Positions 1,697-7,855 are shown, numbered from the stretch's first letter. The stretch is DNA of 7,890 nt from a virus (IMGVR_UViG_3300014523_000016); one strand, 5' to 3'. Translations and numbers: made by a program. The notes: a model not told the origin generated them from the sequence alone.

Positions 1697-1721
1697 TATC
1701 CGATCGTANNNNNNNNNNNNT

Positions 1722-1822: not shown

Positions 1823-2206
1823 TTAGAAGGGAATTGAATCGTCGTATTCAGGATGATTTTGATGATTGCTACTTTGTTGCTGTTGGCTGTTTCCTGAAGT
1901 TGCAAATCCAATCTTTGCATTCAGTAATTCAAGAGTGATTGATTGACCATTTTGCCCCTGATAAGCATCAACCCTGATGTTTTCTCCGGTAATTTCAACA
2001 ATGCCTCCTTCAACCAGAACGCTACGGTAGTAATCCGCTTGCGCTCCCGGCTTGGCAAATACAACGGCGCTGTAGTTTGTCCATTCTTTCTTTTTTGTCT
2101 GGCGATCGTAATACTGAACGCCAGCACGGATGTTGAATCCGATATTTTCCCCGGCCTGAAACTCTCTTGCGGGCTTGTTTAGTCTTACAGTAATCGAATG
2201 TGCCAT
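1823..2206 (-). CDS. ssb: single-stranded DNA-binding protein-like (127 aa) with acidic C-terminal tail ending DDSIPF
   Basis: Within ORF track 1823..2296. Start ATG 2206..2204 overlaps the ERF stop TAA (2208..2206) by 1 nt (TAATG); SD AAGGAG upstream. The C-terminus EYDDSIPF resembles the conserved SSB tail (E. coli SSB ends DDDIPF, from memory), preceded by a Gln/Ser-rich linker. Confidence 0.6.
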   Translation of the reverse strand: MAHSITVRLNKPAREFQAGENIGFNIRAGVQYYDRQTKKKEWTNYSAVVFAKPGAQADYYRSVLVEGGIVEITGENIRVDAYQGQNGQSITLELLNAKIGFATSGNSQQQQSSNHQNHPEYDDSIPF

Positions 2207-2811
2207 TAAGCAGCCGCTCCTTCTAATTCGTCTCGTCTGATGTTGTAAACGTCCTGCGCTTTGTGCTGCTCCGGTGTGCCTTCGAGCATCTTCCACGCTT
2301 TGGCGAACGCCTGTTTAAGCTCTTCCACGGTGTTTTTCTGCAATGCTGCGTCAGTGAATGCTTTTAGAACCTGTTCAGGTGTAGGTGATGGTTTTGATTG
2401 CTTTGCTGCTGCGTTCTGCTGATGTTTATGCTCGTCTGTATCTGCATCTTTCGCATCATCTATGCCGAACAAACCATTGAGGCAATACTTGCGTGCATAA
2501 GAGCTTGTAGCTCCAGTAACTTGTGCAGAATCCATTCCTTTCTTGCTTTCTTCCTCTCGTGCAAGGGCGGTTGCCGTATGACTGTTTTCGCCATCGGTAA
2601 TAGTTGCCGTGGCTTTCACGTAATACCGATCACCAATCAACACAACTTCATCGCTGATTGATAAAAACAGGCCATTCAGTAGCGGCTTAACGCCTTCAAG
2701 AATGTCTTCGCAGCTTCTGTATTTATATTTACCGAATGAGTTGTACTGATTCTTTGGCGCGTTCAGATTCTCCTGAATAGCTGCCAGTCTTGCGTAAAAT
2801 TCTTTGCTCAT
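2206..2811 (-). CDS. erf: ERF-family single-strand annealing recombination protein (201 aa)
   Basis: Within ORF track 2206..2841, whose first codon is TTG. I prefer ATG 2811 (MSKEFYARLAAIQENLNAPKNQYNSFGKYKYRSCEDILEGVKPLL...), preceded by a GAGAA SD-like motif. The N-terminal sequence matches my recollection of P22 Erf-type proteins. Translationally coupled to the downstream SSB-like gene. Confidence 0.8.
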   Translation of the reverse strand: MSKEFYARLAAIQENLNAPKNQYNSFGKYKYRSCEDILEGVKPLLNGLFLSISDEVVLIGDRYYVKATATITDGENSHTATALAREEESKKGMDSAQVTGATSSYARKYCLNGLFGIDDAKDADTDEHKHQQNAAAKQSKPSPTPEQVLKAFTDAALQKNTVEELKQAFAKAWKMLEGTPEQHKAQDVYNIRRDELEGAAA

Positions 2812-2821
2812 ATGATTGTTC

Positions 2822-2992
2822 TCAGAATGGACATGGCCCAAGTAAATAACGCTGATTTAATACTTCAGTCTTTGCCGCATTTAAAAATACGCGAACACCT
2901 TCACGATCTCCCTTTTGGCGATACATTAACGCCTGCTGCGTGTACATGCGTCTCTGTAACTTGCTCTCCTTCACTGTGGTTGCAAGTGACAT
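2822..2992 (-). CDS. hypothetical small basic protein (56 aa) immediately upstream of erf
   Basis: Hand-translated: MSLATTVKESKLQRRMYTQQALMYRQKGDREGVRVFLNAAKTEVLNQRYLLGPCPF. ATG at 2992 has a strong SD GAAGGAG with 6-nt spacer; stop TGA 2824..2822 is 10 nt before the erf ATG. Position matches the small accessory gene (arf) that precedes erf in P22, but no sequence identification is claimed. Overlaps the next ORF by 92 nt in another frame. Confidence 0.4.
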   Translation of the reverse strand: MSLATTVKESKLQRRMYTQQALMYRQKGDREGVRVFLNAAKTEVLNQRYLLGPCPF

Positions 2993-3071
2993 GAATATCT
3001 CCTTCGTTACCGATTAATTCTTTCATCTGACGAATGAATTCTTCGTCTGACCAGTTATCTGTAAAACTCAT
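2901..3071 (-). CDS. hypothetical small acidic protein (56 aa from the ATG overlapping the Kil-like stop)
   Basis: ORF track 2901..3086. The in-frame ATG 3071..3069 overlaps the Kil-like stop (3070..3068) as ATGA (MSFTDNWSDEEFIRQMKELIGNEGDIH...). The C-terminal third overlaps the 2822..2992 ORF, so only one of the two may be real over that stretch. Confidence 0.3.
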   Translation of the reverse strand: MSFTDNWSDEEFIRQMKELIGNEGDIHVTCNHSEGEQVTETHVHAAGVNVSPKGRS

Positions 3072-3429: not shown

Positions 3430-3562
3430 AAAGANNNNNNNNNNNNNNNNNNNNNNNNNNNNNNNNNNNNNNNNNNNNNNNNNNNNNNNNNNNNNNNNNN
3501 NNNNNNNNNNNNNNNNNCAGTGCAGTGTTTATTCTGTTGTTAGTGCCAAAAATAAAGGCCGA

Positions 3563-4186
3563 CTATGCGGACTCGGAAGGAAGTCCAATCATCTTATTCA
3601 AATCTTCTACCCGTAAAGCAGGAAGTGCTGTACTTGCTTTGTCTGCTTCTTTTGGTAGCAATTCTTTGCTTTCAGGCCAAACTTCAATAAGTCGCTTAAC
3701 TGTTGTGACTGAGTTCAAAGCAGCCCATACATTTGATTCGATATCCTTTTTCTTGGCTTCAAGTTTTTGTTGCAATGCGCAGATTTCATCAAACCTTTTT
3801 GTTATTTCGTGTTCTGCATCAAACATGCATTTATCTTTGGTTGGAGTAGGGAGCAATATATCTTCGCCGTTGCCGTCTTTCCCATATGAATGCCATCCAA
3901 CCCTTCTGCCAGATACAGTCAGATAAATTGAAGTAGAACGAACATCGTATGAGTAAAATGAACATCCCATCTTTTCAAGTTCTTCACTTATAGCTACTAA
4001 CCTGGATGATAACTGATCCACTTCCTCAGTTTTCTTTTTACCGCCAAACGCAATAACTCTGGCGTCAAGTGCAAGCTGGTTCTTTAACTTTGTTACTTCT
4101 TCAAGTTCAGTGAAAACCCCAGACTTAATTAAAGCGTTACGAGCGATTTTCTCTTTCATTCTCGTAGTTAAGCGGATTGATGACAT
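3563..4186 (-). CDS. hypothetical protein (207 aa) between N and cIII; function unknown
   Basis: Within ORF track 3563..4246, whose first codon is TTG. I prefer ATG 4186 (MSSIRLTTRMKEKIARNALIKSGVF...) with SD GAGGA about 9 nt upstream. Lys/Glu-rich with predicted helical stretches, no transmembrane-like segment. No family recognised. Confidence 0.65.
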   Translation of the reverse strand: MSSIRLTTRMKEKIARNALIKSGVFTELEEVTKLKNQLALDARVIAFGGKKKTEEVDQLSSRLVAISEELEKMGCSFYSYDVRSTSIYLTVSGRRVGWHSYGKDGNGEDILLPTPTKDKCMFDAEHEITKRFDEICALQQKLEAKKKDIESNVWAALNSVTTVKRLIEVWPESKELLPKEADKASTALPALRVEDLNKMIGLPSESA

Positions 4187-4247
4187 ATTAATTCCTCTCA
4201 AATAAGTGGTTTGCTGCCTAATTTCATTTTCTGGCGACCAACACAAG

Positions 4248-4520
4248 TCATCTTGCTGTCAGTTGTTTTGATTTCCGATAGCCTGCCGCGTAAAGAGCTA
4301 CATTTGGAAGACAAGTTGAGCCTTCATATTTTCTGGTCAACGTTGTCAGTGTTATTACTTCTGCTCTCATTGCTGGTTTGCGCTTGCATTGCAAGACCAC
4401 TCGTGAAGGGGTTGGCCTGTGTAGCTTGTCGGAGCTGATCGCCTCCTGACTTTGCAGATTTGCACGACGAGCTCTACGGCGAGAAGCTGCGGTGCCTTTA
4501 AATTCTGTTTTTCTGGACAT
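4248..4520 (-). CDS. N: N-like transcription antitermination protein (90 aa) with N-terminal arginine-rich motif
   Basis: Within ORF track 4248..4592. ATG 4520 is preceded by GGAGG with a 5-nt spacer. Residues 13-25 SRRRARRANLQSQ parallel the lambda N arginine-rich motif (RRRERRAEKQAQW, from memory). Lies downstream of a nutL-like element and the pL/OL region. Confidence 0.8.
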   Translation of the reverse strand: MSRKTEFKGTAASRRRARRANLQSQEAISSDKLHRPTPSRVVLQCKRKPAMRAEVITLTTLTRKYEGSTCLPNVALYAAGYRKSKQLTAR

Positions 4521-4619
4521 GGATTCCTCCCGAATAAACTCTGGCGATGCAATCCCGAAGCTACTCCTGAGAGAGTTGCTTCGGCATTGCATCCCACAGC
4601 TTATGTGGTTGGGTGATCT

Positions 4620-4710: not shown

Positions 4711-4829
4711 ACTTTATCGAAATGATAAATTAATGGCAATAGCAAAATGATAAATTGTTTTAGTTTTCAAATATCCTGTTGATTATTATGGTTTTTTATT
4801 TGATTGCAGGAATTTATCAGAAGGAATAA
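4711..4829 (-). promoter_or_regulatory. OL/pL-like region: 17-bp operator palindromes and a candidate leftward promoter
   Basis: Perfect 17-bp palindrome TTTATCGAAATGATAAA at 4713..4729. Weaker sites of the same type at 4738..4754 (aatagcAAAATGATAAA) and 4813..4829 (TTTATCagaagGAATAA). On the minus strand a candidate pL has -35 TTGCCA (plus 4739..4734), 17-bp spacer, and -10 TAAAGT (plus 4716..4711), overlapping the first operator. The same -10 hexamer and operator family recur at the OR side. Confidence 0.55.
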
Positions 4830-4937
4830 AGAGACTTGAGGGGGATCAGAATTGCGCGTTTTAGTGAGTTGTATCTGTTTATNNNNNNNNNNNNNNNNNN
4901 NNNNNNNNNNNNNNNNNNNNNGACGCTGTAACCAAAG

Positions 4938-4962
4938 AAACCCGGGCGCTGAGGCCGGGTTT
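4938..4962 (-). terminator. intrinsic terminator after the cI-cassette operon (hairpin looks bidirectional)
   Basis: 8-bp stem aaacccgg (4938..4945) pairing with ccgggttt (4955..4962), 9-nt loop. On the minus strand the stem is followed by TTTCTTTGG; on the plus strand by TTTTTCT. Sits 3 nt after the stop of the 258-aa cassette gene and before the masked run and OL region. Confidence 0.55.
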
Positions 4963-4964
4963 TT

Positions 4965-5741
4965 CTAGGCTACCAGAGACTCAATCCAAGAGTCTCTGGT
5001 ATGGAATGGCAACACTCGTGCGGTATCATTAAATAGTAGTGATAGTTGCTGTAGCTCAGGTGTTAACCCATCGCTGTCAACTATTACAAATCTATTGTTT
5101 ATGTCAGGAACGACCTGACTTAAGTCAACAATCTTCCCAACTGTTGAGTGGGCAGTATTCCATCCCTTACTGCTGGCAAGGCTTACCGTAAACCCGCGTT
5201 TTGGTGGTATTAGTCGAGACTCATTCCTTAGCGTTAACGGAACAGTAATGTTATGCCCACTAATACCTTTCACTTTTTCCTTTAAGGCTAGTCGCTTCCC
5301 AAGCCCTGCTGATTTTAAGTAACTGATTACACATTTTTCGAACTTATCGTCTTTGACCTCAGCATACCAATCAGCAGTTTGGGCGGATGCAAGAATCCCA
5401 CCACGAATAACATTTGCAGTTACCTGTCCAACGGACGACTCATCTGCCCACGCAGATATCTCTCCAGAGTCATTTAATGAAATTCCTTGCGAAGCGAGTG
5501 ATGACCTGATCAGATCAATTTTCTTTTTAGTCAGGTGGATGCCGCGTGATTCAATATTCATCAATGTATCGCAGTAGTCTGTAACCCTATACTGACCACT
5601 CATCTCTTGAACGAATACACTTATCTGCTCACAATCATCGTAGTATGTGAAGGGACTAATAACGCGCAGCAACGTGTCGCTCATTGGGTGGCATTCAAAC
5701 CCGAGCTTAGATATGACTGTTGAACACGTTACATTTCCCAT
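4965..5741 (-). CDS. hypothetical protein (258 aa), second gene of the cassette in the rexAB-equivalent position; function unknown
   Basis: ORF track 4965..5741. ATG 5741..5739 lies 13 nt upstream of, and out of frame with, the stop of the preceding gene (TAA 5731..5729), suggesting coupling. No transmembrane-like hydrophobic stretch and no motif I recognise. Hand-sampled GC in this cassette is about 37-38% versus about 57% in a cI line. Confidence 0.75.
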   Translation of the reverse strand: MGNVTCSTVISKLGFECHPMSDTLLRVISPFTYYDDCEQISVFVQEMSGQYRVTDYCDTLMNIESRGIHLTKKKIDLIRSSLASQGISLNDSGEISAWADESSVGQVTANVIRGGILASAQTADWYAEVKDDKFEKCVISYLKSAGLGKRLALKEKVKGISGHNITVPLTLRNESRLIPPKRGFTVSLASSKGWNTAHSTVGKIVDLSQVVPDINNRFVIVDSDGLTPELQQLSLLFNDTARVLPFHTRDSWIESLVA

Positions 5742-6271
5742 GATAGCTGACCTGATTTATCTTGATTAGGTAAAGGTGGGCTGCCTTCATATATGATATT
5801 AAGCGCCTCGCAAAAATAATTCCAGTAGCCAAAAAAATCATCTGGCTTGATGTTCGTTTCAAGCTTAAGTGCAATTTCTTCCCCAGCTGATTCGAAGTAC
5901 ATGTGATAGTGAGGACCTCGAGCCACCTCAACAAAATCTGGATGGTTCACTATAGATTTATTACGGTGTGGCTTGTTATCCGCAGGGTACGGGTCAAGCG
6001 CGTAAATGCGCCTGTCATGAAGAAACATCACAAATGAAATCTTCACTATATCCACCCCTTCAACGATAGGAGGACGCCAGTGAAGCATAAATCTTATGCC
6101 TGTGATTGGGTTGCCAATTTCATCAAAAGCTTTGAGATCCAATTTAAACCAGATTGGGGTTCGTCCCTCACTTCCGGTCCATGTAACTCCGCTAAAAGTT
6201 ACTTTTTTCAAGCGAGTAATAGCTTGGTCAACCTCTTTCTGGGTAGGCTTAAAGTCGCCTTTTTTAGCCAC
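5729..6271 (-). CDS. hypothetical protein (180 aa), first gene of the cassette downstream of cI; function unknown
   Basis: ORF track 5729..6271. Start is GTG 6271..6269 with a GGTGA SD-like motif 11-12 nt upstream; first in-frame ATG is about 60 codons in, so the true start is uncertain. Same strand as cI, 97 nt after the cI stop. Contains His/Tyr-rich stretch GPHYHMYF. No family recognised. Confidence 0.65.
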   Translation of the reverse strand: MAKKGDFKPTQKEVDQAITRLKKVTFSGVTWTGSEGRTPIWFKLDLKAFDEIGNPITGIRFMLHWRPPIVEGVDIVKISFVMFLHDRRIYALDPYPADNKPHRNKSIVNHPDFVEVARGPHYHMYFESAGEEIALKLETNIKPDDFFGYWNYFCEALNIIYEGSPPLPNQDKSGQLSWEM

Positions 6272-6368
6272 TGATTCGTATCACCATGAAAGTTATTGTT
6301 AATACCTGTGCTTCTTGTCACCCAAACGTCTCTTCAGGCCACTGGCTATCAGCTATGTGACGATGAAG

Positions 6369-7073
6369 TCACGAACTTTTCAGCCACTCCCTTGCCTCGA
6401 TGTCATCCAGATGGCGAGATTGCTTCAGAATACCAGCCACATACTCCACCTTTGCTACTTGATGATAAGGCAACGTTATTGGCCTATGGTCCTGGTTGAT
6501 GCTTGTAAACTGGTATTCTCCGTCTCTGTCATAGCCAAGAACTTTGATCATGTTGTGTCCTTCAACGGTTCTGACAAACACCTCATCACCCGGGAATACT
6601 TTGGTGTTAGGCTCAATGAGTACATATTCTCCTGATTTTATTCTAGGCCACATGCTGTCTCCTTTCACACGAAGACCAAAGGCATCTGGATCATCGCTAT
6701 AAATCTTGAGCCACCCATCGCGCTCTTCGGTCATCTCGATGGCACCATCAACACCAAGAATTGCCTCACCAACCACGCGCACTAACCCTTTTCTTACCTG
6801 ACCGACAAAAGTTAAAGAATCTGAGCATGATGCAATTGGTGTTACATCATGTACCAAATCAAGCCACCCATTAGGTAACCCAAGTGCGGCTTCGAATTTT
6901 CTTGCTAGTTTATCCCCTATGTTTCGAGTGCTTTTTTCACCGGAGACTTGCGTGAGTTGAGAAGGGCTAACTCCAAGCTTATCGGCAAAGCTTGCATTAG
7001 TGTTACCCGCGATTTTTTTATGCTCATCTAGCAAAAACGCCAGATTCGATTTGCGAATATCTTTGTTTTCCAT
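6369..7073 (-). CDS. cI: cI-type prophage repressor (234 aa): N-terminal HTH plus C-terminal LexA/S24-like autocleavage domain
   Basis: ORF track 6369..7073. ATG 7073 is preceded by GAGGGAG. N-terminal HTH-like segment ASFADKLGVSPSQLTQVSGEK. C-terminal domain has the S24 serine motif GDSM and a Lys (MIKVL) 37 residues later, the LexA-type Ser-Lys dyad spacing. Divergent from cro across an operator region. Confidence 0.9.
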   Translation of the reverse strand: MENKDIRKSNLAFLLDEHKKIAGNTNASFADKLGVSPSQLTQVSGEKSTRNIGDKLARKFEAALGLPNGWLDLVHDVTPIASCSDSLTFVGQVRKGLVRVVGEAILGVDGAIEMTEERDGWLKIYSDDPDAFGLRVKGDSMWPRIKSGEYVLIEPNTKVFPGDEVFVRTVEGHNMIKVLGYDRDGEYQFTSINQDHRPITLPYHQVAKVEYVAGILKQSRHLDDIEAREWLKSS

Positions 7074-7100
7074 CCCACGATTCTCCCTCTATTTAGCAAA

Positions 7101-7177
7101 TGGATAAATACGCATTTTGATAAATCTCCATTGCAGTTTATTTATCAAAATGGTAAAGTTGCTCTGTGTGATAAACG
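7101..7177. promoter_or_regulatory. OR-like operator region between cI and cro
   Basis: Four GATAAA/TTTATC half-sites (7104..7109, 7119..7124, 7141..7146 on the other strand, 7170..7175). An 11-bp inverted repeat ttttgataaat (7115..7125) / atttatcaaaa (7140..7150). A 17-bp site TTTATCAAAATGGTAAA at 7141..7157 matches the OL palindrome type with one mismatch. pRM must lie here but I could not place its hexamers. Confidence 0.6.
7131..7159 (+). promoter_or_regulatory. candidate pR promoter for cro
   Basis: -35 TTGCAG (7131..7136), 17-bp spacer, -10 TAAAGT (7154..7159), about 28 nt upstream of the cro ATG and overlapping the 17-bp operator. Same -10 hexamer and spacing as the candidate pL. Hexamers are moderate matches only. 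Confidence 0.45.
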
Positions 7178-7186
7178 GAGGCACTA

Positions 7187-7420
7187 ATGAGTAATGAACT
7201 ACTACGCTGGCGAAAAGAGGCTTCTAGTGAGGAATGGAAGCGACTCGCCGCATTAGCGAATACTTCAGTTGGCTATCTTGATCAGATTGCATATGGGTTT
7301 CGAAGAGCTTCCCCAGATAAAGCGAATGCAATCGAAGAAGCCACTCGTAATTTCACGGGTTATAAACCTGTGAAAAAGGAAAATCTGGTGTTCGTATCGC
7401 GTAGAGCATCAGCAGCATAA
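7187..7420 (+). CDS. cro: Cro-like HTH regulator (77 aa)
   Basis: ORF track 7187..7420. ATG preceded by GGAGG with a 5-nt spacer. Divergent from cI across the operator region and followed by nutR and cII. HTH-like segment LAALANTSVGYLDQIAYGFRR. Assignment rests mainly on position. Confidence 0.7.
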   Translation: MSNELLRWRKEASSEEWKRLAALANTSVGYLDQIAYGFRRASPDKANAIEEATRNFTGYKPVKKENLVFVSRRASAA

Positions 7421-7558: not shown

Positions 7559-7855
7559 ATGGAACAAACAAGTTACAGCAAACTATCCCAGCGTGACGTT
7601 GATCGCGCAGAAACAGATTTACTCATCAACCTGTCAACGCTTACCCAGCGCGGTCTGGCAAAGATGATTGGCTGTCATGAATCGAAGATAAGCAGAACGG
7701 ACTGGAGGTTTATTGCTTCGGTCTTGTGTGCTTTCGGAATGGCATCAGACATCAGTCCGATTAGCAGGGCTTTTAAGTATGCATTGGATGGAATCACAAA
7801 GAAAAAATCCCCGGTTGCCGCCGGGGACTCTAAGCAAATTGATATGCAATTCTGA
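7559..7855 (+). CDS. cII: cII-like transcriptional activator (98 aa)
   Basis: ORF track 7559..7855. The central HESKISRTDWRF segment and the C-terminus TKKKSPVAAGDSKQIDMQF parallel lambda CII (...SQISRWKRDW... and TNKKRPAATERSEQIQMEF, from memory). Weak RBS. Position after cro and nutR is as in lambda. Confidence 0.85.
   Translation: MEQTSYSKLSQRDVDRAETDLLINLSTLTQRGLAKMIGCHESKISRTDWRFIASVLCAFGMASDISPISRAFKYALDGITKKKSPVAAGDSKQIDMQF

What the first reader, a model, noticed from the sequence alone, without database searches (positions are those of the whole stretch)
4965..6271. Uncharacterised two-gene cassette in the cI-to-OL interval, the position lambda uses for rexAB
Two coupled minus-strand genes (180 aa and 258 aa, 13-nt overlap) follow cI on the same strand and end at a strong hairpin terminator (4938..4962) just before the OL/pL region. 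In lambda this slot holds the rexAB exclusion system expressed from the lysogenic transcript. Neither protein shows a transmembrane-like stretch, so they do not look like a RexB-type membrane partner, and I recognise no catalytic motif in either. Hand-counted GC on sampled 60-nt lines is about 37-38% in the cassette versus about 57% in cI, which fits a horizontally acquired moron. A lysogen-expressed anti-phage or abortive-infection function is the most plausible reading, but that is inference from position only.
Basis: partly seen in the sequence, partly recalled or inferred. Interest (0 to 1): 0.85.

Follow-up and report, generated by a model that had tools for sequence, protein, structure and literature searches.

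The report
Untested phage-defence candidate replacing lambda rexAB
Two overlapping genes sit just after the prophage repressor gene, exactly where phage lambda keeps its rexAB exclusion genes; they belong to a rare two-gene family that two computational resources flag as probable anti-phage defence, but nobody has tested it and its mechanism is unknown.

Summary
The anatomy is real. Gene A (5729-6271, 180 aa) and gene B (4965-5741, 258 aa) lie on the minus strand and overlap by 13 nt. They follow cI and end at an intrinsic terminator before OL. The claimed GC contrast is wrong: 43.3% in the cassette against 45.0% in cI.

In E. coli O104:H4, a prophage with lambda's own cI carries the same cassette. 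Homology to lambda breaks at the cI stop codon and resumes at the last 7 nt of rexB, so the cassette is a base-precise replacement of rexAB. Phages with the window's cI carry other cargo there, including a relative of the validated PD-lambda-2 system.

The A-B pair stayed together in every locus examined, 38-52% identical relatives included, mostly after a repressor but also as chromosomal islets.

B combines a type-III-secretion-chaperone-like domain with a restriction-endonuclease-like fold that lacks the canonical catalytic motif. A has an unresolved fold and a near-invariant Arg/Asp/His-x-Asn/His-x-His set.

Both match PADLOC candidate PDC-M24 weakly. DefensePredictor lists the family as predicted defence but did not screen it.

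Best reading: a lysogen-expressed, toxin-antitoxin-like defence module (confidence 0.55). Its function is inferred, not shown.

The parts
6369..7073 (-). cI repressor (234 aa, H-19B/BP-4795 immunity type). Context: the upstream gene of the same transcription unit.
   Evidence: Peptidase_S24 match, E 3.8e-16. 100% identical to BP-4795 cI.
6318..6348 (-). Relic of the 3' end of a lambda-type cI gene (…QWPEETFG-stop), left as a recombination scar between the resident cI and gene A.
   Evidence: 93.5% identical to lambda 37227-37257. The same string is the true end of cI in O104:H4 and Pantoea.
6272..6317 (-). 46-nt spacer with a GGTGA Shine-Dalgarno-like element 9 nt before the GTG start. No promoter or terminator was detected.
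   Evidence: Sequence read directly. The promoter/terminator scan found nothing here. The fold is no better than shuffled sequence, z -0.61.
5729..6271 (-). Gene A, 180 aa, soluble. The fold is unresolved. Conserved set: K22, W31, R88, D93, H102-x-N104, G119-x-H121-x-H123, F153, P168, Q175. Distant relative of DUF6978 / PDC-M24A.
   Evidence: The RefSeq protein WP_001074607.1 is 99.4% identical.
4965..5741 (-). Gene B, 258 aa, soluble. N-terminal DUF1828 domain with a type-III-secretion-chaperone/YbjN-like fold. C-terminal restriction-endonuclease-like fold (DUF1829-like) without the canonical D…(D/E)xK motif. Invariant residues: G159-x-S161-G162-H163, D206, R217.
   Evidence: Identical to WP_000528776.1.
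4934..4964 (-). Intrinsic terminator (hairpin ACCCGGC…GCCCGGGT plus UUUCUUU). It is homologous to the lambda terminator downstream of rexB, so it is conserved flank rather than cassette cargo.
   Evidence: 91% identical to lambda 35798-35831. A terminator follows B in 11 of the 11 prophage or phage loci folded, although sequences differ.
4718..4755 (-). OL operator-like sites (ATTTATCATTTCG and ATTTATCATTTTG), marking the far edge of the slot.
   Evidence: The same motif occurs three times at 7097-7152 (OR).

Best explanation
The cassette is a self-contained two-gene module carried by temperate phages in the repressor-to-OL slot. It is transcribed in the lysogen by read-through from the cI promoters, as rexAB is in lambda, and it most likely protects the lysogen against other phages by a toxin-antitoxin-like or abortive-infection mechanism.

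Proposed division of labour (inferred):
- A and B form a complex, made in fixed ratio through translational coupling.
- B is the sensor or adaptor. Its chaperone-like N-terminal domain binds a peptide or protein: a phage product, or A's conserved C-terminal tail. Its degenerate endonuclease-fold domain binds DNA or a ligand.
- A carries a near-invariant R/D/HxN/HxH set typical of a metal-dependent active site, and is the effector released or activated on infection.

Shown: the anatomy, the precise allelic replacement of rexAB, strict A-B co-inheritance, the fold of B, the conserved residues, and the variability of the slot.

Inferred: expression from PRM, the defence function, and which protein is the effector.
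For: - Replacement of rexAB. In O104:H4, homology to lambda runs through cro-OR-cI to the cI stop (lambda 37227). It resumes at lambda 35831, the last 7 nt of rexB, and continues through the terminator and OL. The 1351 bp between are A-B.
- No promoter or terminator lies between cI and A.
- Pair conservation. An A homologue lies directly upstream of B in 8 of 8 species-representative genome loci, even at 38-52% identity. A DUF1828-type gene of about 250 aa overlaps the 3' end of A by 4 nt in 5 of 5 distant metagenomic or genomic contigs. The pair also occurs in E. coli phage ev207, Pseudomonas phage phPA-G and Burkholderia phage phi644-2.
- Context. Seven complete Enterobacterales loci, one metagenomic prophage and ev207 all place the pair right after a cI-type repressor. 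Four other loci are stand-alone islets beside HigBA-like toxin-antitoxin pairs or transposases, so the module works without phage regulators.
- Variable slot. With the same cI, BP-4795/H-19B carry a PD-lambda-2-like set (A 2.5e-42, B 3.8e-50) plus a PD-T4-9_C-like gene. PD-lambda-2 is an experimentally validated abortive-infection system (PMC9519451). Other strains carry two further unrelated cargoes.
- Candidate-defence homology. A matches PDC-M24A (3.8e-4; relatives to 4e-6) and B matches PDC-M24B (5e-7; relatives 1e-10 over the full length).
- DefensePredictor Tables S5 and S10 list the 185-aa and 250-aa E. coli variants as 'Predicted novel defense gene' with mean log-odds 4.9-6.3. The cluster id is WP_001074607.1, the accession of gene A. 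That study's overall validation rate was 45% of 94 units.
- A's polar set is 93-100% conserved over 132 sequences with median identity 23%.
Against: - There is no functional test of this family anywhere in the literature searched. It was not among the units DefensePredictor screened.
- The PADLOC matches are weak. For A they cover only the C-terminal 60 residues.
- B lacks a conserved D…(D/E)xK motif, so a nuclease effector role is doubtful.
- Expression in the lysogen is inferred from layout, not measured.
- A plain addiction module would show the same genomics.
Confidence: 0.55

Rival explanations
1. A plain toxin-antitoxin or addiction module that stabilises the prophage or islet through post-segregational killing, with no role against other phages.
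For: Two translationally coupled genes. Stand-alone copies sit beside other toxin-antitoxin pairs and transposases. The alternative cargo in the slot is built around a HigB-like toxin. The DUF1829-bearing partner in DS-6/HipAD is proposed to be antitoxin-like.
Against: Neither protein resembles a known toxin or antitoxin family. At 180 aa with enzyme-like conservation, A is atypical for an antitoxin. An integrated prophage has little need of segregational stabilisation. The toxin-antitoxin-like systems found in prophage slots that have been tested turned out to defend (PMC9519451).
Confidence: 0.15
2. A modulator of the phage's own lysis-lysogeny decision or of induction, acting on the resident prophage rather than on invaders.
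For: Constant placement in the immunity operon next to cI in 9 prophage or phage loci. B has a possibly DNA-binding endonuclease-like fold without catalytic residues.
Against: The same cassette sits behind at least three different repressor types: lambda, H-19B and a hybrid. It also occurs in non-prophage islets with no repressor, so it cannot depend on one regulatory partner. Most phages with the same cI lack it.
Confidence: 0.1
3. Some other lysogenic-conversion function (stress tolerance, virulence, inter-bacterial competition or immunity), or an anti-defence function.
For: Function is unknown. The cassette is present in pathogenic lineages such as O104:H4. DefensePredictor reports false positives among toxin and immunity genes.
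Against: There is no signal peptide or membrane segment and no virulence-family match. Distribution follows temperate phages of many hosts rather than pathotypes. Anti-defence genes are usually early lytic genes, not part of the repressor transcript.
Confidence: 0.1

Closest known systems
Lambda rexA-rexB exclusion system
   Same: Identical genomic place and presumed transcription logic: downstream of cI, upstream of the same terminator and OL. In a lambda-immunity prophage the cassette replaces rexAB to the base. Both are two-gene modules.
   Different: No sequence relation: blastp found nothing better than E 0.9, and there is no Rex family in Pfam or PADLOC output. There is no membrane partner, whereas RexB is a membrane protein (established knowledge). 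The domain content is entirely different.
PADLOC phage-defence candidate PDC-M24 (components A and B)
   Same: Same two-gene order. A matches PDC-M24A models and DUF6978. B matches PDC-M24B models and DUF1828. Relatives of B match over the full length.
   Different: The matches are weak: A at 3.8e-4 over 60 residues, B at 5e-7. This is therefore a divergent branch. PDC-M24 is itself only a computational candidate, and no paper in the library mentions it.
DefensePredictor 'predicted novel defense gene' cluster WP_001074607.1 with WP_000968518.1 (PMC13092281)
   Same: The cluster id is the RefSeq accession of gene A. The listed E. coli pair (185 aa plus a 250-aa DUF1828/DUF1829 protein) is the ev207-type variant, 40% and 51% identical to A and B and in the same cI-N slot.
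   Different: It is a prediction only. The pair is absent from Table S6 (units screened) and Table S8 (validated systems).
DS-6 / HipAD (HipA-like kinase plus a DUF3037-DUF1829 partner)
   Same: The enzyme gene comes first, followed by a partner carrying a DUF1829-type (PD-(D/E)xK clan) domain. That partner is proposed to bind the enzyme and DNA in a toxin-antitoxin-like defence system.
   Different: A is not a kinase by any search here. B has DUF1828, not DUF3037. The window's B does not itself reach the DUF1829 model, although its relative phi644-2 gp47 does.
PD-lambda-2 (validated toxin-antitoxin-like abortive-infection system) and BstA-type prophage defences placed after the repressor
   Same: They occupy the same cI-to-OL slot in phages with the same cI. 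This shows that the slot holds lysogen-expressed defence cargo (PMC9519451; PMC8585504 listed).
   Different: The proteins are unrelated.
Can2/Card1 and NucC nuclease domains; type II restriction endonucleases
   Different: There is no CARF or other nucleotide-sensor domain. No conserved acidic-acidic-lysine catalytic triad is present. No Foldseek match is significant at E below 0.06.

Membership tests
Lambda RexAB | Sequence homology to RexA and RexB | tested here: not met
   blastp of A and B against lambda RexA and RexB gave a best E of 0.9. No Rex family appeared in the Pfam or PADLOC output.
Lambda RexAB | A membrane-embedded partner (RexB-type) | tested here: not met
   Maximum 19-residue hydropathy is 1.22 (A) and 0.79 (B), so no transmembrane segment is present.
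Lambda RexAB | Location in the cI transcription unit between cI and the terminator before OL | tested here: met
   Exact replacement of rexAB in a lambda-immunity prophage. The window layout agrees.
PADLOC candidate PDC-M24 | First gene matches a PDC-M24A model | tested here: inconclusive
   E 3.8e-4 over residues 98-160 only. 4 of 18 family members match at up to 4e-6. DUF6978 scores 23.6 bits, below its 29.6 cut-off.
PADLOC candidate PDC-M24 | Second gene matches a PDC-M24B model | tested here: met
   E 5.4e-7 for B. Relatives reach 1e-10 over the full length. DUF1828 scores above its Pfam cut-off (40.9 against 22 bits).
PADLOC candidate PDC-M24 | The two genes are adjacent, on the same strand, in the order A then B | tested here: met
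   13-nt overlap in the window. The order held in all 8 genome loci, all 5 distant contigs and all 3 phages checked.
PD-(D/E)xK nucleases | Restriction-endonuclease-like alpha-beta-beta-beta-alpha-beta core fold | tested here: met
PD-(D/E)xK nucleases | Conserved catalytic D … (D/E)-x-K on strands 2 and 3 | tested here: not met
   The alignment of diverse B homologues has no conserved acidic residue or lysine on those strands. The invariant residues are instead G-x-S-G-H163, D206 and R217.
Type III secretion chaperone / YbjN-like domains | Small alpha/beta chaperone-like fold | tested here: met
Type III secretion chaperone / YbjN-like domains | Binding of an extended partner peptide | not testable with these tools
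Type II toxin-antitoxin systems | One product is toxic alone and is neutralised by the other | not testable with these tools
   This needs expression experiments. No known toxin or antitoxin family matched.
Validated anti-phage defence system | Reduced plating or abortive infection when expressed | not testable with these tools
   No report was found. The pair was not screened in PMC13092281.

The most novel reading that the evidence does not exclude
A-B is a mechanistically new abortive-infection or defence system. A type-III-secretion-chaperone-like domain fused to a catalytically degenerate endonuclease fold (B) senses a phage protein or DNA structure. It thereby controls a small enzyme of a previously undescribed fold (A, with the R-D-HxN-HxH site). 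This would make it a functional successor of rexAB in lambda-immunity prophages, including one in the O104:H4 outbreak lineage.
Probability: 0.3. Interest if true: 0.7.

Novelty: new variant of a known kind. Interest (0 to 1): 0.5.

Why it matters
If it defends, this would add a new protein architecture to the set of lysogen-expressed immunity genes. It would also give a natural, base-precise swap with rexAB: the same repressor, terminator and operators with different cargo. That is an unusually clean setting for comparing exclusion systems in isogenic lambda lysogens.

The family is rare. There are 22 clusters at 50% identity among 1.84 billion proteins, and 8 loci in 185,579 species-representative genomes. 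It is nonetheless spread across temperate phages of Enterobacterales, Pseudomonas and Burkholderia, and is present in 61 of 5,426 complete E. coli genomes. Two computational resources already point at it, so it is a ready, low-risk target for experiment rather than a surprise.

Tried and rejected
- The GC-content argument for foreign origin is rejected (43.3% against 45.0%).
- Homology to RexA/RexB is rejected.
- NCBIfam gave no hit for either protein. PHROGs gave only unknown-function families phrog_2017 and phrog_1960.
- PDB sequence searches with single proteins and with profiles gave nothing meaningful.
- The AlphaFold-database fold library was not available.
- The search for related loci with the divergent A alignment failed for lack of a conserved stretch. 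The B alignment was used instead.
- I looked for a promoter or terminator between cI and A and found none.
- I compared A's motif from memory with cupin, HNH/His-Me, HIT, metallophosphoesterase and kinase catalytic-loop signatures. None fits in spacing or order, and no Pfam model supports any of them, so none is claimed.
- Literature searches for DUF1828, DUF6978, PDC-M24, the two accessions and phages ev207/PhiR63_2 found no functional study.

Full report
**1. The observation**

The window is a lambdoid immunity region.
- On the plus strand lie cro (7187-7420) and cII (7559-7855; Phage_CII, E 2e-31).
- On the minus strand lie cI (6369-7073; Peptidase_S24), gene A (5729-6271, 180 aa, GTG start) and gene B (4965-5741, 258 aa).
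- After B comes a hairpin plus U-tract (4934-4964), then N (4248-4592), an Nmad5 gene and erf.
- A and B overlap by 13 nt.
- An operator-like motif, ATTTATCANNNTG, occurs 8 times against 1.0 expected by chance. It clusters at 4718-4755 (OL) and 7097-7152 (OR).
- Neither protein has a membrane-like segment.

Its composition argument is not. The cassette is 43.3% GC, cI is 45.0% and the window is 43.9%, and third-position GC is the same in all three genes.

**2. The cassette is an exact replacement of rexAB**

The cI-cro-OL set of the window is the H-19B/BP-4795 immunity type, 95% identical in DNA with an identical cI protein.

The cassette is found at 95-100% identity in 61 of 5,426 complete E. 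coli genomes, always once and always on the chromosome. These include the O104:H4 outbreak lineage.

In O104:H4 the repressor upstream of the cassette is lambda's own cI. A direct comparison with lambda shows two blocks of homology:
- The first, 97% identical, runs through cro, OR and cI down to the cI stop codon (lambda 37227).
- The second resumes at lambda 35831 and runs to 35550. It covers the last 7 nt of rexB, the terminator and OL.
- The 1351 bp between these blocks are A and B, in place of the 1395 bp of rexA-rexB.

The window itself keeps two traces of that ancestry:
- A 31-nt relic of the lambda cI 3' end (6318-6348, encoding QWPEETFG-stop) is stranded between the H-19B-type cI and gene A.
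- Its terminator is 91% identical to lambda 35798-35831.

The terminator is therefore conserved flank, not cargo. Horizontal exchange is shown by these junctions rather than by composition. A and B have no detectable similarity to RexA or RexB.

**3. The slot is variable**

Only 2 complete genomes carry the window's exact combination of cI, cassette and OL. Others combine the cassette with lambda cI, or with a hybrid repressor that shares only the C-terminal half.

Phages and strains with the window's cI carry other cargo between cI and OL:
- BP-4795, H-19B and many Stx phages have three genes. These match PD-lambda-2 A (2.5e-42), PD-lambda-2 B (3.8e-50, N-terminal part) and PD-T4-9_C (3e-11).
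- Some strains have a 120-aa plus 42-aa pair.
- Others have a 106-aa plus 227-aa pair.

PD-lambda-2 is an experimentally validated, toxin-antitoxin-like abortive-infection system (PMC9519451).

**4. The pair is a conserved two-gene module**

Gene A belongs to a very small family. There are 22 representatives at 50% identity among 1.84 billion proteins, and about 160 clusters at 90% identity with a profile search.

A scan of one genome per species (185,579 species) with the B alignment found 8 loci: Pantoea, Providencia (two), Yersinia, Xenorhabdus, Thorsellia, Izhakiella, and a 518-bp contig filed under Actinomadura.
- In all 8 an A homologue lies immediately upstream, although identity falls to 38-44% for A and 46-52% for B.
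- In the 7 complete loci the pair follows a cI-like helix-turn-helix protein of 210-282 aa, with a divergent cro-like gene.
- Three of these loci have an extra DUF3024 gene (PADLOC candidate PDC-S43) between the repressor and A.

Five distant A homologues on long contigs were also examined. Each is followed, with a 4-nt overlap, by a gene of about 250 aa, which scores as DUF1828 in four of the five.
- One lies after an HTH_3 plus Peptidase_S24 repressor.
- Two lie beside HigBA-like toxin-antitoxin pairs.
- Two lie beside transposases.

Among isolated phages:
- E. coli phages ev207 and ev017, two phages isolated on E. coli ECOR13 (PhiR63_2, PhiR57_1) and one Stx1a phage carry a 40%/51% variant between cI and N.
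- Pseudomonas phage phPA-G has a B homologue preceded by an unannotated A-like ORF.
- Burkholderia phage phi644-2 gp48/gp47 is another such pair.

A terminator follows B in all 11 prophage or phage loci folded, even where its sequence is unrelated.

**5. What the proteins are**

*Protein B.* It modelled well (mean pLDDT 82).
- Foldseek agrees only weakly, with probability 0.72-0.82 to Card1.
- The relative phi644-2 gp47 reaches Pfam DUF1829. DefensePredictor's HHpred table assigns DUF1828 plus DUF1829 (PD-(D/E)xK clan) to the E. coli variant.
- Across diverse homologues there is no conserved D…(D/E)xK motif. The invariant residues of this domain are G159-x-S161-G162-H163, D206 and R217. The N-terminal domain keeps C6, C17, R26, D36 and D55, with E16 and E38 nearly invariant.
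- B is therefore a nuclease-fold protein that is probably not a canonical nuclease.

*Protein A.* It modelled poorly (pLDDT 56) and matches no fold.
- It scores below threshold on DUF6978, and only over residues 98-159.
- Over 132 family members with median identity 23%, twelve positions are 93-100% conserved: K22, W31, R88, D93, H102, N104, G119, H121, H123, F153, P168 and Q175.
- Such a polar set suggests an active or metal-binding site. This is an inference from conservation alone.
- The extreme C-terminus (…SGQ-x-S-L-L, or SGQLSWEM in this subgroup) is also conserved.

**6. Links to defence**

- A and B match the two components of PADLOC candidate PDC-M24 in the right order. The matches are weak for the window proteins (3.8e-4 and 5.4e-7). 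They are stronger for relatives, at 4e-6 for A and 1e-10 over the full length for B.
- DefensePredictor (PMC13092281) lists WP_001062368.1 (185 aa) and WP_000968518.1/WP_000968517.1 (250 aa) as 'Predicted novel defense gene'. The cluster id of the 185-aa protein is WP_001074607.1, the RefSeq accession of gene A. Mean log-odds are 4.9-6.3.
- These accessions and the name DUF1828 are absent from the tables of screened and validated units. The family is therefore predicted but untested. That study validated 45% of 94 screened units.
- A DUF1829-bearing partner occurs in the validated DS-6/HipAD system. There it is proposed to hold a kinase toxin and bind DNA.
- No paper in the library treats DUF1828, DUF6978 or PDC-M24 functionally.

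**7. Most likely mechanism**

The cassette has no promoter or terminator of its own between cI and A, and it ends at lambda's terminator. It should therefore be transcribed with cI in the lysogen, as rexAB is. This step is inferred.

Several features fit a self-contained toxin-antitoxin-like defence or abortive-infection module:
- strict co-inheritance of the two genes;
- translational coupling;
- mobility between repressor types;
- stand-alone copies beside toxin-antitoxin pairs and transposases;
- slot-mates related to a validated defence system.

I rate this reading at 0.55.

Within it, I favour A as the effector enzyme and B as the sensor or adaptor, by analogy with DS-6. The reasons are that A keeps catalytic-looking residues while B has lost the nuclease motif. 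This assignment is weakly supported, at about 0.3. The opposite assignment, with B as an unconventional nuclease using S161/H163/D206, is not excluded.

The rivals are a pure addiction module (0.15), a modulator of the resident phage's switch (0.1), and other lysogenic-conversion or anti-defence roles (0.1).

**8. Verdict**

- The family is a divergent branch of an already flagged but uncharacterised candidate, so it is a new variant of a known kind (defence cargo in the lambdoid repressor slot), not a categorically new thing.
- A specialist would not be surprised that such a slot holds a defence candidate. The value lies in an unexplored architecture and a natural, precise rexAB swap that makes the question directly testable.
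- Interest is 0.5.

Noticed in passing
window 6318-6348 (-): A 31-nt fossil of the 3' end of a lambda-type cI gene (…SQWPEETFG-stop) lies between the stop of the resident H-19B-type cI and gene A. It marks the recombination that brought the cassette in from a lambda-immunity phage.
   Followed up: yes
L001 (E. coli O104:H4 2011C-3493) 9001-11067: A prophage in the O104:H4 outbreak strain has lambda's own cI and OR, but carries A-B instead of rexAB. It is not the region annotated with stx; the neighbouring genes are Rac-like recombination genes (recE, bet, gam, kil).
   Followed up: partly
L008 5052-5393, L009 5053-5394, L013 5044-5385: In Providencia and Izhakiella prophages an extra 113-aa DUF3024 gene sits between the repressor and gene A. 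It matches PADLOC single-gene candidate PDC-S43 at 5.7e-37, so the slot can stack candidates.
   Followed up: partly
L023 (Pseudomonas phage VB_PaD_phPA-G) about 2489-3004: An unannotated ORF starting MAKQK carries the H-x-N-K … H-x-H motif of the A family and overlaps the B-like gene by 4 nt. The deposited annotation leaves this stretch empty. The gene upstream of it matches PADLOC candidate PDC-S48 weakly.
   Followed up: partly
L004 669-1672 and L005 1172-2175; L003 684-1190: Two further alternative cargoes occupy the same cI-OL slot. One is a 106-aa plus 227-aa pair (weak CCDC90-like coiled-coil match). The other is a 120-aa plus 42-aa pair. Both are uncharacterised and have no PADLOC match.
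   Followed up: partly
window 3563-4246 (-): A gene matching Nmad5 (nucleotide modification associated domain 5) at E 5e-72 lies immediately downstream of N in the early left operon.
   Followed up: no
window 1823-2296 (-): A 157-aa ORF next to erf ends in EYDDSIPF, like the acidic tail of single-strand-binding proteins, yet has no Pfam match at E below 0.01.
   Followed up: no
window 1709-1720, 3435-3517, 4883-4921: These are runs of N (masked sequence). The third lies just past the terminator. In the near-identical strain GF4 the corresponding stretch is ordinary AT-rich spacer, but the window and GF4 already differ in the 12 bases between the terminator and the mask.
   Followed up: partly
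window 4934-4964 versus L006 5840-5870: The window's copy of the terminator has an extra C in the 3' arm and one U fewer than the copies in GF4, O104:H4, ev207 and lambda. This gives a bulged, slightly weaker hairpin, which the simple terminator scan missed.
   Followed up: yes
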